In this document: positions 2,775 through 60,307 of the stretch, piece after piece
How the letters are laid out: every line of letters starts with the position of its first letter
Position numbering within the stretch: position 1 is the stretch's first letter
From: Squalus acanthias
Taxonomy: Eukaryota
Assembly: GCA_030390025.1 (NCBI GenBank)
Contig: CM059441.1
Span: forward strand, 22,320,001 to 22,384,000
Reading direction: 5' to 3'
Length of the DNA stretch: 64,000 nucleotides
Notes under the pieces: generated by a model
What the model was told of the DNA's origin: nothing
The model's input: only the letters and a program-made list of their open reading frames with translations
The model's database searches: none
Position numbers and translations under genes: made by a program

Positions 2775-3011
2775 AGTTACCATTATGGACTCTCCTTCCT
2801 TCTATCCTATCACAGACCTTCCCTTTTGTTCTTTCCTTCCCCCCCACTCCCCACTCCCTTTCCCTGCCCCTACACTTGCTTAAAAACCTGTTACATCTCC
2901 AACTTTTTCCAGTTCTGACGAAGGGTCATCGACCTGAAACATTAACTCTGTTTCTCTCTCCACAGATGCTGCCTGACCTGCTGAGTATTTCCAGCATTTT
3001 CTGTTTTTATT
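2775..3011 (+). mobile_element. Penelope-like element pLTR/3' fragment with hammerhead-like motif
   Basis: Close match to 8240-8440, which follows a GIY-YIG ORF; contains agtt-CTGACGA-agggtcatcgacct-GAAA-catt-aact. Confidence 0.8.
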
Positions 3012-7647: not shown

Positions 7648-8440
7648 ATTCCCCACGGCACCTTCCCGTGCAAGCGCAGGAGATGCAACACCTGCTCTTT
7701 TACCTCCTCCCTTCCCACTGTCCAGGGCCCCAAACACTCACTCCTTCCAGGTGAAACAGCAATTTACTTGTTGTACTTACAATTTAGTATACTGTATTCG
7801 TTGCTCATGATGCGGTCTCCTCTACACTGGGGAGACCAAACGCAGATTGGATGACCACTTTGCGGAACACCTCCATTCAGTCCGTAAGGGTGACCCTGAG
7901 CTTCCGGTCGCCTGTCACTTTAATTCTCCGCTCCACTCCCACTCTGATCTCACCGTCCTCGGCCTCTTACACTGTTCCAACAAAGCTCAACGTAAGCTCG
8001 AGGGACAGCACCTCCTTTCGATTAGGCACTTTACAGCCTTCTGGACTCAACATCGAGTTCAACAATTTCAGATCATAACCTCGGCCCCTATTTTTTTTTC
8101 TCTCTCACATGGCAGCTGTTGATGATTCTGCCATTGCCATTTGCACCTCATCTAGAGTCATCTTTTGTTTCTTAACTTGTCCCATTACCATCTCCTTTTG
8201 CCTTGCACCATCATCCCGTCTGTCTTTTAATCTCTCTTGCCTTCCATCCTATCACAGACCTTCCCTTTTGTTCTTTCTTCCCCTCCTCCCTTTCTCTGCC
8301 CCTGCACTTGCTTAAAAATCTGTTACTTCTCCAACTTTTTCCAGTTCTGACGAAGGGTCATCGACCCAAAATGTTAACTCTGTTTCTCTCTCCACGATGC
8401 TGACTGACCTGCTGACTGTTTGTTTCCAGCATTTTCTGTT
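7648..8440 (+). mobile_element. Penelope-like element 3' part: GIY-YIG endonuclease (frameshifted) plus pLTR
   Basis: PHGTFPCKRRRCNTC...LLYTGETKRRL.DHFAEHLHSVRK.DPELPVACHFNS...FRLGTLQPSGLNIEF assembled across frames. Confidence 0.9.
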
Positions 8441-22419: not shown

Positions 22420-22745
22420 TATTTGTGTCTCTAATCCTTCAACCAACGCTACTGAAACAGATTAAAAACAGAAAATGCTGGAAATACTCAGCAGGTTAGG
22501 TAGCATCTGTGGAGAGAGAAACAGAGTTAACGTTTCAGGTCGATGACCCTTTGTACTACTGAAACAGATTACCTGGTCAGTTAGCTCATTGGCTGTTTGT
22601 GGGACCTTGCTGTGCGCAAATTGGTGGCCATGTTTGCCCACATAATGACCGTGTCTACACTTCCCAATTAATTAATCGGCTATGATGTAATTTTGGATGT
22701 CCTGAGGTCGTGAGAGGAGCTAAATAAATACAAGATTTGTTCTCT
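22420..22745 (+). mobile_element. Old DeuSINE 3' half containing a Penelope pLTR fragment (-, 22465-22555) between 16-bp direct repeats
   Basis: ctactgaaacagatta at 22449-22464 and 22556-22571; the insert is the reverse complement of the pLTR at ~2920-3010. Confidence 0.8.
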
Positions 22746-23124: not shown

Positions 23125-23692
23125 AAAACAACAACTTGTATTTATATAGCGCCTTTAAAGTAGTAAAACGTCCCAAAGCGCTTCACAGGAGTGATTATCA
23201 GACAAAGTTTGGCATAGATATTTGAAAATGCTAAAAATACTCCGCAGGTCAGGCAGCATCTGTGGAGAGAGAAACCGAGTTAACGTTTCAGGTTGGTGAT
23301 CATTTGTCTGAACTGGAAAATGTTGCAGATATAATGGGCTTTAAGCAAGTGCAGAGGCAGGGAAAGGGGGGTGGGGGGAGAGGAGAAAAGAGCAACAGGG
23401 ATGGTCTGTGATAGGGCGGGAAGGCAGGTGTGATTAAATGAGAAAAGGGATGACGTGACCAAAAGCTTGGTCAAAGAGGTAGGTTTTAAGGAGCGTCTTA
23501 AAGGAGGGAGAGAGGTTTAGGGAGGGAATTCCAGAGCTTCGGGCCCAGGCAGCTGAAGGCACAGCTGCCAAAGGTGGAGAGATGAAAATCGGGGATGCGC
23601 AAGAGGCCAGAATTGGAAGAGTGCAGAGAACCCTGAGGGTTATAGGGCTGGAGGAGGTTACAGAGATGGGGAGGGACGAGGCCATGGAGGGA
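23125..23692 (-). mobile_element. L2 3' fragment with a nested Penelope pLTR (-, ~23225-23455)
   Basis: L2 tail 23125-23215; pLTR gcaggtcaggcagcatctgtggagagagaaac..; L2 resumes at gtgaccaaaagcttggtc. Confidence 0.8.
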
Positions 23693-34905: not shown

Positions 34906-36171
34906 CGCCTTGCTTTTTAGTCGTGTGATGTTCCCTACTATGACTCCAGTCATATTTGGATGGACCGACTTCTCCATCCGTGCTGCTGCCTGACCCAACT
35001 CCCAATCTAGGATTGTTATGCGGCCGTTTTTTTTTCTAGCGGTGTGAAGACACTGAATGTACCTCCAGGATGCGGATCTGGGTTCTTTTTCACTAGCGAT
35101 GCCAGATCAGTGTCTTTTAGAAACTGCTGGCACGAGAAATTATTTACTTGCTTGCTCATCAATGAGAGTAGTATTCCCACACTGCCAAACGTTGGCCCTC
35201 CTGTTTGTCCGTGGACAAGGGAGATATTCCCAAGTATCTCTGCACCACAGAATTCACACTGTGTCGTGTGCAGCTTTGTGTTCAATGCAAATACACATTA
35301 AGTGTCTGAAATGACAGTTCACTCCAAAAGCTAACCGCTGGGCCCTTGTGCGGGTTCTACTGCAAGTATCAAAAGCTTAATCAAGGAAACATTATAGTGG
35401 ACTTCGGCCTAAAGTAAAAAGGAAAGAGATCTGTAATCTGAATAGCAACCTTGTTACAGGGAGAGCAGTATCAAGAGTGTCTCTGCAGGCATGGGGTTCA
35501 TTCCTGGCCTTATGCCCAGTGTGAGCCTGCAACTATTTATAGGGTCGCTAACTTGGCATTGGCAAGAGTTTTTCTCTGGAGTAAAGAATGATGCTGTCTG
35601 ACTTGGTGCCTGCACAGGATGGGAGGTGCCCTGACAGGAATGGGCATTTAAAAGAATTCCAGGATGCTGGCTGGTAGAGGCGTTGTTTGCTAAGGGCCTG
35701 TGAAAAGGACTCTATATAACAAAGCAGGTTTGGCACTGTTCTTGATCCAGGTGCAGTGACAAAGGTGTACAAATCTGCAACAGCGTCAAACACAAGCTTG
35801 TAGCAGAAAAAACGTGGAGTGCGATGTGAACTCTGTGCCTCTCTTGGAATAATCATTTTTAAGCTCCAGTCAGGTTTCTGGGCACCCTGAACAGTACCAC
35901 AGGGCCAGATTAGACATAAAGAAAGAAGGACTGGCATTTAAATAGCGCCTTTCACGACCACCGGACGTCTCAAAGCGCTTTACAGTCAGTGAAGTACTTT
36001 TGAAGTGTAGTCACTGTTGTAATGTCGGAAACGCAGCAGTCAATTTGCGCACAGCAAGCTCCCACAAACAGCAATGTGATCATGACCAGGTAATCTGTTC
36101 TATTGATGTTGATTGAGGGAGAAATATTGGCCAGGACACCGGGGAGAACTCCCCTGCTCTTCAAAATAGTG

Positions 36172-36373
36172 AGAGGTCGCACAACACCAGGTTATAGTCC
36201 AACAGTTTTATTTGAAATCACAAGCTTTCGGCGCTATCGATCGCCCCTTCCTCAGGTGAAGGGGCGATCGATAGCTCCGAAAGCTTGTGATTTCAAATAA
36301 AACTGTTGGACTATAACCTGGTGTTGTGCGACCTCTCAATTTTGTCCACCCCAGTCCAACACCGGCATCTCCG
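36172..36373. mobile_element. Palindromic non-autonomous Penelope-type element with 13-bp TSD
   Basis: Arms 36170-36250 and 36258-36338 (80/81 complementary), 7-nt loop; TSD cttcaaaatagtg at 36159-36171 and 36374-36386. Confidence 0.85.
36218..36259 (-). ncRNA. Candidate minimal type I hammerhead ribozyme
   Basis: Minus strand UCAC-CUGAGGA-a-GGGGC-gaucgaua-GCGCC-GAAA-GC-UU-GUGA: stem I UCAC/GUGA, core CUGANGA and GAAA, palindromic AAGCUU at stem III. Confidence 0.6.
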
Positions 36374-36779
36374 CTTCAAAATAGTGCCATGGGAACGTCT
36401 ACGTCCACCTGAGGGGGCAGACGGGGCCTCGGTTTACCGTCTCATCCGAAAGACAGCACCTCCGACAGTGCAGCACTCCCTCAGTACTGCACTGGAGTGT
36501 CAGCCTAGATTTCTGTGCTCAAGTCTCTCGAGTGGGATTTGAACCCACAACCTTCTGACTCGGAGGCGAGTGTGCTATCCACTGAGCCATGGCTGACACT
36601 CGAGCGATGATTTGTGTTTTATTATTCTGTTAACCGAACCACATGGTGTCAAGAGGTTGGGCAGAATGACCCAATGAAACCACACAGAAATTTCAGCTTG
36701 GTCAGGTTTTTAGTACATTACCCGCTGTCGACCATTGCTGGCTTTCACCCAACATTCTTGTAATAAAAGTTAAAATACA

Positions 36780-59715: not shown

Positions 59716-59940
59716 ATGTCCGCTCGACAACTGGCTTCTTGTTGCATGGAAGTGAATGGAGACATGATCATGGTCCATGATCAGGTGAAAGTGGAGGAGG
59801 TGGAGGAAGAGCGCAGCTGTTACGGATCTCACAGTGCTTTGTTTCCCAACAATCCTCATTCCGAGGGGCTTCAGATCAAAGTGGCACCGGGGCGCGAGAA
59901 CCCTGACCTTGAAAGGTCAGGGGTTGTGAAACAAACGCAT
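59716..59940 (+). CDS. SOX13: ATG-bearing coding exon (exon 59715-59940) of a SoxD-group HMG-box transcription factor; most likely SOX13, SOX5 not excluded
   Basis: Polypyrimidine acceptor ccccttgtcctgcag|A ATG; phase-0 donor CAT|GTAAGT. The 75 codons MSARQLASCCMEVNGDMIMVHDQVKVEEVEEE..FPNNPHSEGLQ.. match, from memory, SOX5 ([41 protein letters not shown]) and SOX13 (MSMRSPISAQLALDGVGTMVNCTIKSEEKKE) without gaps over the first ~30 residues; exon size and phase fit recalled SoxD exon 2. Family confidence ~0.85, paralog ~0.6. Confidence 0.8.
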
Positions 59941-60307
59941 GTAAGTTACAAACGTGAGTGCGTGGCCGAGAACTTGAGTTTTATCCTACTCAGGCTGACT
60001 TTTGTTCCCTCGTGAATGAATTTTGGTAAAAGTCCCAAAACGGTCCCAATGTTAGTTGAAGTTTGGACTGTTTCACGCAAGTGGTAGGCCAGGCATGACG
60101 TGTGGTGGCAGGCAGCTAAGAATCAATCAATGTTGTATTCAAATCAAACGTAAAAGGCGGGATGAAATATGTGCGTTGATACTTTCTCCCTCCCGGAGAT
60201 CTCGCGCAGACTTGAAGCAACTACTTAATTCACCATCACTGACTCCTAAATCAACTGGGGGTGAAATTCCTCTTACAGCACAGGCAGTGCATTAAATGGG
60301 AGTTCAA

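What the first reader, a model, noticed from the sequence alone, without database searches (positions are those of the whole stretch)
36159..36386. 202-bp hairpin retro-element carrying a minimal hammerhead ribozyme
Seen: 81-bp arms with one mismatch, a 7-nt loop, a 35-bp unique tail (..gtccaccccagtccaacaccggcatctccg), a 13-bp TSD, retained CpGs, and no ORF of its own. The minus strand across the loop reads UCAC-CUGAGGA-A-GGGGC..GCGCC-GAAA-GC-UU-GUGA, a type I hammerhead topology with palindromic AAGCUU; the + strand has the same motif without CUGA. Established: Penelope elements often form inverted 5'-truncated pLTR structures and encode minimal hammerheads. Inference: a young, non-autonomous, retrozyme-like unit whose ribozyme competes with an 80-bp dsRNA hairpin (Dicer/ADAR substrate), inserted upstream of a SoxD coding exon. 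It is a different family from the pLTR at 2775/8240.
Basis: partly seen in the sequence, partly recalled or inferred. Interest (0 to 1): 0.7.

Follow-up and report, generated by a model that had tools for sequence, protein, structure and literature searches.

The report
Double-primed Penelope stub in a shark
This 202-base mirror-image insert is a stub of a young, abundant Penelope-type jumping gene in a shark genome, not a ribozyme element that spreads as a unit, and the ends of its relatives suggest that the parent likely cuts a symmetric target and copies its RNA from both cut ends at once.

Summary
The palindrome, loop, tail, 13-bp TSD and minus-strand minimal hammerhead are real. The unit reading is not supported. 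Both arms copy the 5' leader of an autonomous Neptune-type Penelope-like element (3,137-bp unit, 892-aa RT plus GIY-YIG ORF); two intact copies match the short arm and tail at 116 of 116 bases. The arm core has 14,440 exact matches. The palindrome is rebuilt at each insertion: junctions vary, arms run from under 100 bp to 3 kb, the tail sits on either arm, and both arms share one leader variant (47 of 48). No head-to-head insertion had two tails (one tail in 46 of 48, 39 of 39, 50 of 50); arm lengths correlate; 12 of 50 ultra-short junctions have no loop; targets are two-fold symmetric, TG[G/T]Y-N12-R[C/A]CA. Best model (inferred): a dimer nicks both strands, primes two cDNAs at two RNA sites and joins their 3' ends. 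This copy is likely dead: no promoter, a private change in stem II, hairpin favoured by 55 kcal/mol. The architecture is published, and the scan noted it before in other shark genomes; the symmetric target was not found in my searches.

The parts
36159..36171 (+). Left target-site duplication (13 bp; likely a 12-nt stagger plus one chance match)
   Evidence: family TSDs are 12-13 bp in 65 of 84
36170..36261 (-). Long arm: copy of the parent's 5' leader from its second base to the proximal start site; holds the hammerhead core; no tail
   Evidence: 91 of 92 bases match intact-ORF copies L317 and L324
36215..36261 (-). Minimal type I hammerhead; predicted cut between 36222 and 36221; stem II broken by the private change at 36232
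   Evidence: activity untested
36251..36261 (+). Head-to-head junction: 7-nt loop plus 4-nt GAAG microhomology shared by both arms
36258..36338 (+). Short arm: sense copy of the leader starting after the CUGA box
   Evidence: arm plus tail match L317 and L324 at 116 of 116 bases
36339..36373 (+). 35-bp tail: the stretch between the proximal and distal start sites, ending just before the parent's ATG
   Evidence: tail defined in PMC11167929
36374..36386 (+). Right target-site duplication
36155..36158 (+). Left half-site of the symmetric target (TGCT, one departure from TG[G/T]Y)
36386..36389 (+). Right half-site of the symmetric target (GCCA)
35916..36600 (.). Host repeat interrupted by the insert (SINE-like; that label is recalled); other copies in the window are empty here, and the same position was hit in L202 and L145

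Best explanation
The insert is two back-to-back copies of the 5' leader of an autonomous Neptune-type Penelope-like element, likely made in one insertion by double-ended target-primed reverse transcription. Shown: parentage, variable junctions, one tail per insertion, matched arms, symmetric targets. Inferred steps: (1) a dimeric RT-endonuclease nicks both strands of a TG[G/T]Y-N12-R[C/A]CA site, leaving 12-nt 3' overhangs; (2) one overhang primes at the distal RNA site (about +130 to +137, beside the ATG) and the other at the proximal site (about +90 to +97), which gives a tail on one side only; (3) both cDNAs run toward the RNA 5' end, here the presumed transcription start about 30 nt below a TATATA box; (4) their 3' ends are joined through a few complementary bases (GAAG here) and repaired. 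Priming in the downstream pLTR gives the long inverted copies by the same route. The stub lacks the promoter and is likely inert; the hammerhead is a passenger.
For: Parent: 892-aa ORFs from the ATG after the tail in L121, L122, L124-L127 (6 of 10 loci fetched); RVT_1 E 1.4e-8, GIY-YIG E 1.8e-4 at 22.1 bits, just under the 22.6 cutoff; 16 copies carry the window's variant and run into the ORF, 3 intact. Sample B, 70 insertions from the first 100 core matches on C1 (arm ends curated by hand): 39 head-to-head, 31 single; one tail in 39 of 39; arm-length Spearman 0.68 (0.88 for the 19 pairs with both arms long); 26 of 39 within 45 nt against a permutation mean of 10.6, maximum 19; 23 of 109 arm 5' ends fall at -4 to +4. 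Sample A: one tail in 46 of 48, none in 2, both in 0; same loop II variant in both arms in 47 of 48, with 10 variants present. In the window each arm holds sequence that the other lacks, so neither is a copy of the other. Ultra-short class: 462 in the genome; of the first 50, 50 have one tail and 12 are loop-less perfect palindromes, which a fold-back cannot easily prime. Targets: both half-sites in 36 of 84 against a background mean of 0.8, maximum 4; 23 of 58 after collapsing similar sites. In vitro, a Poseidon PLE cuts and extends both strands, starts at two sites that bound the tail, and is predicted to be a dimer (PMC11167929).
Against: No biochemical or RNA evidence for this family. 31 of 70 insertions have one arm only, 26 of them tail-less, and the model needs an added step for these. 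PMC11167929 saw no difference in start site between strands and no homology at priming, whereas here the two sites exclude each other within an insertion and ends show short microhomology (means 1.8 and 1.4 nt, no null computed). The pile-up of 5' ends could be an RT pause at the hammerhead stem rather than a transcription start. L010 and L026 share a change in one arm only, which unit copying would also give. 8 of 92 pairs had no exact TSD. The half-site motif was read from the same sites on which it was tested. A mix of two fold-back routes could mimic the one-tail rule.
Confidence: 0.75

Rival explanations
1. One cDNA is made, folds back on a short internal complement and copies itself (snap-back, or the antisense self-priming proposed in PMC3846280); the tail is left by resolution of the intermediate (PMC8557442).
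For: It explains identical arms, correlated lengths and short loops; the leader's 5' end can form a small hairpin with this loop. In sample B the tail-less arm reaches further in 22 pairs, the tailed arm in 13, equal in 4.
Against: A fold-back copy cannot hold sequence absent from its template, yet the tail lies on the shorter arm in 22 of 48 sample A pairs, as in the window. 12 of 50 ultra-short junctions have no loop. Both ends stop at fixed RNA sites, and the target is symmetric.
Confidence: 0.17
2. The 202-bp palindrome is a non-autonomous retrozyme-like unit that is transcribed and re-inserted whole.
For: All 40 scored BLAST places cover the whole unit at 97-100%; 523 junction-motif matches; the shared one-arm change in L010 and L026.
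Against: Junction, loop orientation relative to the tail and arm length vary; subfamily changes appear in both arms at once; no head-to-tail array of the short unit among the 60 sample A loci; no promoter; one catalytic core, buried in a hairpin favoured by about 55 kcal/mol.
Confidence: 0.05
3. It is a DNA-type MITE with terminal inverted repeats, or an assembly artefact.
For: Short, palindromic, ORF-less and flanked by a TSD.
Against: The tail lies outside the repeats, both ends vary, TSDs range from 10 to 15 bp, and the sequence is the leader of an RT-encoding element. Distinct TSDs at many loci argue against an artefact.
Confidence: 0.02

Closest known systems
EN+ Penelope-like element insertions with inverted pLTR and one-sided tail (Pen2a_Av, PMC3846280; general scheme, PMC8557442; D. 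virilis Penelope, PMC2377424; passages read)
   Same: Head-to-head inverted pLTR, 30-40 bp tail at one end, TSD, pLTR overlapping the ORF start, TATA-like and Inr-like motifs.
   Different: No ORF or promoter is retained; both arms stop at or near the leader's 5' end; those passages describe no sequence-symmetric target.
Poseidon_Ac (PAc) of the green anole (PMC11167929; main text read)
   Same: Two RT start sites that bound the tail; both strands cut and extended; hammerhead in the leader and not needed for insertion.
   Different: PAc is Poseidon clade with its ORF starting inside the hammerhead and an AT-rich ATT cut preference; here the parent has the CX4CxxC linker, the ATG follows the tail region, and sites are TG[G/T]Y-N12-R[C/A]CA.
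Minimal hammerheads of metazoan PLEs (PMC4209133; parts 1-2 of 4 read)
   Same: Type I, no helix III loop, palindromic 15.2-16.2 pair, extra base after A9, G10.1-C11.1.
   Different: This copy has a mismatch in stem II and is single and locked in a long hairpin.
Non-LTR retrozymes (PMC7229834, passages; bioRxiv 10.64898/2026.07.22.740005, parts 1-2 of 5)
   Same: Short, non-coding, PLE-related, type I hammerhead.
   Different: Retrozymes are head-to-tail repeats with at least two ribozymes on one strand; this is head-to-head with one core.
L1 twin priming (recalled, no call)
   Same: Both target ends prime reverse transcription; the cDNAs join by microhomology.
   Different: L1 gives an inversion of non-overlapping segments from chance internal priming; here both primers start at fixed neighbouring sites and copy the same sequence.

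Membership tests
EN+ Penelope-like element (parent) | Single ORF with RT and C-terminal GIY-YIG endonuclease | tested here: met
   892 aa; RVT_1 above cutoff; GIY-YIG E 1.8e-4, 0.5 bit under cutoff
EN+ Penelope-like element (parent) | Partial-tandem pLTRs | tested here: met
   leaders 3,137-3,140 bp apart in L121, L122, L125-L127
EN+ Penelope-like element (insertion) | Inverted pLTR, one-sided 30-40 bp tail, TSD | tested here: met
Neptune or Nematis clade | CX2-5CxxC linker before the endonuclease; two Cys between GIY and YIG | tested here: met
   read from the translation against PMC8557442
Neptune clade | RT phylogeny places it in Neptune rather than Nematis | not tested
   no reference PLE sequences were fetched; 'Neptune-type' rests on the linker
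Minimal type I hammerhead | Core boxes, stems I and II, palindromic 15.2-16.2 | tested here: met
   one stem II pair broken in this copy
Minimal type I hammerhead | Self-cleavage | not testable with these tools
   indirect test negative: no excess of arm ends at the cut site
Non-LTR retrozyme | Head-to-tail repeats with two or more ribozymes on one strand | tested here: not met
   window and 60 sample A loci
Non-LTR retrozyme | Circular RNA | not testable with these tools
   no RNA holder listed
MITE | Terminal inverted repeats, fixed ends, fixed TSD length | tested here: not met

The most novel reading that the evidence does not exclude
This family records a distinct integration mode: a dimeric RT-GIY-YIG protein recognises a two-fold symmetric target, makes a 12-nt staggered double nick, and runs two coupled reverse transcriptions from two fixed sites of one RNA before joining the cDNAs head to head. 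This would account for the inverted pLTR and one-sided tail of Penelope-like elements, and intact young ORFs are at hand to test it.
Probability: 0.6. Interest if true: 0.7.

Novelty: new member of a known kind. Interest (0 to 1): 0.42.

Why it matters
The single insert matters little: it is one of thousands and likely inert. The family matters because PMC8557442 calls the features of the cycle that make tandem and inverted PLE structures still undefined, and PMC11167929 leaves the steps after first-strand synthesis unvalidated. Here thousands of young insertions give rules that a model must meet (never two tails in the samples, matched arm variants, correlated arm lengths, loop-less joints, symmetric 12-nt target), plus intact ORFs, a short leader RNA and a defined target for an in vitro test. 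The by-products also seed the genome with near-perfect inverted repeats that could give dsRNA when read through (untested).

Tried and rejected
Rfam: nothing at gathering score; only long-hairpin miRNA-type hits by E-value, rejected as shape matches. PDB sequence search of the ORF: no hit. Hammerhead cut site as a source of 5' ends: 219 arms seemed to start at +42, and most of 30 loci read were true truncations, but the neighbouring-position control gave 229, inflated by a variant, and many +42 joints are GTGA microhomologies. Among 74 arm ends of 37 main-type ultra-short junctions, 6 mapped to +42 (3 of them sequence variants) against 4 at +41, 10 at +43 and 10 at +36: no spike; 13 of the 50 junctions were set aside as other subfamilies. 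Whole-genome step at the 5' end (4,288 against 2,672 matches) is confounded by upstream variants and was not used. RNA: no RNA holder listed; contigs of four runs gave no start or end information. Presence or absence of this insertion in other individuals or species remains untested. and the mismatch columns had indexing errors, redone. The automatic junction labels and 'DIFF' flags were corrected by eye (L039, L043, L061 parse errors; L051, L075 single point changes; L035 a real variant difference; L087 complex). L051 and L052 are one insertion duplicated later. No structure or complex prediction was run. Literature searches that did not show a symmetric PLE target or a two-cDNA model; the library lacks many subscription papers, Repbase and Dfam were not searchable, and no supplements were read (Figs S1-S2 of PMC11167929 bear on target sites; bioRxiv supplements are closed).

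Full report
Observation. The insert at 36172-36373 is flanked by an identical 13-bp duplication and consists of 81-bp inverted arms with one mismatch, a 7-nt loop and a 35-bp tail. It folds far better than shuffles (z -22) and keeps its CpGs (11 seen, 11.7 expected). It interrupts a common repeat whose other copies in the window are empty at this position. A SOX13-like exon lies 23 kb downstream on the + strand; its relatives are shark and ray proteins. Whether the insert lies inside that transcript was not tested.

The hammerhead. The minus strand 36261-36215 has the minimal type I layout described for PLEs (PMC4209133). In 30 distinct natural variants 98.2% of stem cells pair, against 28-46% for slid controls, and one stem I pair changes on both sides in 9 related rows. 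The motif is thus kept in the family. In this copy the arm mismatch is private and is the one unpaired cell of its stem II pair. The long hairpin (-158.3 kcal/mol) beats the best fold that keeps the ribozyme (-102.8). The + strand lacks the CUGA box.

The parent. Extending the tail led to copies that continue into an ORF. Six of ten fetched loci hold an intact 892-aa frame in a 3.14-kb unit with pLTRs. Pfam finds RT and, just under its cutoff, GIY-YIG; the CX4CxxC linker marks the Neptune or Nematis type. Sixteen copies have the window's loop II variant and run into the ORF; three are intact, and two of them match the short arm and tail at 116 of 116 bases and the long arm at 91 of 92. A 25-nt arm core occurs 14,440 times. 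No separate non-autonomous master is needed.

Is the palindrome a unit? The best BLAST places look like one, and the junction motif occurs 523 times. I fetched 60 of the first 64 listed hits, skipping the others (two were already held). They comprise 12 single arms and 48 head-to-head pairs: 17 window-type joints, 19 joints 4 nt longer, 12 complex. By extrapolation about 150 window-type copies exist. They come with the tail on either arm and in 7 leader variants. Both arms carry the same variant in 47 of 48 pairs although 10 variants circulate. A sample not chosen by junction (70 insertions from the first 100 core matches) shows a continuum of arm lengths up to 3 kb. So the mirror half is made anew at each insertion, and the window's loop recurs because of a 4-nt microhomology next to a frequent 5' end point.

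Rules of the insertions. (a) Arm 3' ends fall in two clusters, about +91 to +104 and +131 to +144, like the two start sites that bound the tail in vitro (PMC11167929). (b) One tail per pair: 46 of 48, 39 of 39 and 50 of 50, never two (two loci are shared between samples). (c) Arm lengths correlate (0.68; 0.88 when both are long). (d) 5' ends pile up at -4 to +4, 23 of 109, about 30 nt below a TATATA box; a transcription start is inferred. (e) 12 of 50 ultra-short joints are loop-less palindromes. (f) TSDs are 12-13 bp in 65 of 84, and the empty sites are symmetric, TG[G/T]Y-N12-R[C/A]CA: both halves in 36 of 84 against 0.8 in flanking DNA, and 23 of 58 after collapsing repeated sites. The motif was derived from these same sites.

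Mechanism. These rules fit a dimer that nicks both strands 12 nt apart, primes one cDNA from each overhang at the two RNA sites, and joins the cDNA 3' ends. In the window the long arm has the CUGA box that the short arm lacks, and the short arm has the tail that the long arm lacks, so neither can be a fold-back copy of the other. Matched variants and lengths suggest one RNA or two tightly coupled enzymes; L035, with two different variants, may be a two-RNA case or a point change. Against: 31 of 70 insertions have one arm; the in vitro study saw no strand difference in start site; a pause could explain the 5' pile-up; two fold-back routes together could mimic rule (b). I found no sign that the ribozyme sets the 5' ends, in line with PMC11167929.

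Comparison and novelty. Inverted pLTR, one-sided tail and TSD are published PLE features (PMC3846280, PMC8557442, PMC2377424; passages read); PMC3846280 explains the palindromes by self-priming on an antisense template. The insert fails the retrozyme definition (PMC7229834, passages; bioRxiv 10.64898/2026.07.22.740005, parts 1-2 of 5) and the MITE definition. My searches did not show a symmetric target or a two-cDNA model in print, with the limits given above. The scan noted such stubs before: 72 notes in at least 10 genomes, several with the twin-priming or rebuilt-mirror reading; these are unchecked AI notes read after my own reading was fixed, and a word search for the symmetric target returned none. 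Verdict: a real, ordinary product of a known class, with useful mechanistic evidence in its family. Interest 0.42.

Noticed in passing
window 59716-59955 (+): N-terminal coding exon of a SOX13-like gene, 92% identical to its best shark relative.
   Followed up: partly
window 7748-8020, with repeats near 2775-3010, 8210-8440, 22460-22555, 23220-23455: GIY-YIG fragment of a second, older Penelope-like family, 38% identical to the parent ORF, with its own pLTR-like repeats.
   Followed up: partly
L009, L016, L020, L023, L063, L072, L090, L194, L230 and other clusters: The same position in common host repeats is hit again and again; 36 of 84 sites fall into 10 clusters of similar sites.
   Followed up: partly
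A1 alignment, loop II: Loop II of the hammerhead varies in length and sequence among very young subfamilies while stems and core stay fixed.
   Followed up: partly
sample B single-arm insertions: 26 of 31 single-arm insertions lack the tail, so the proximal site dominates when only one arm is kept; unexplained.
   Followed up: no
L161, L171: Arms with internal jumps in the ORF (skipped or inverted segments), suggesting template switching.
   Followed up: no
L121, L123, L127: Full-length, intact-looking elements with long inverted arms of 0.9 to 2.9 kb.
   Followed up: partly
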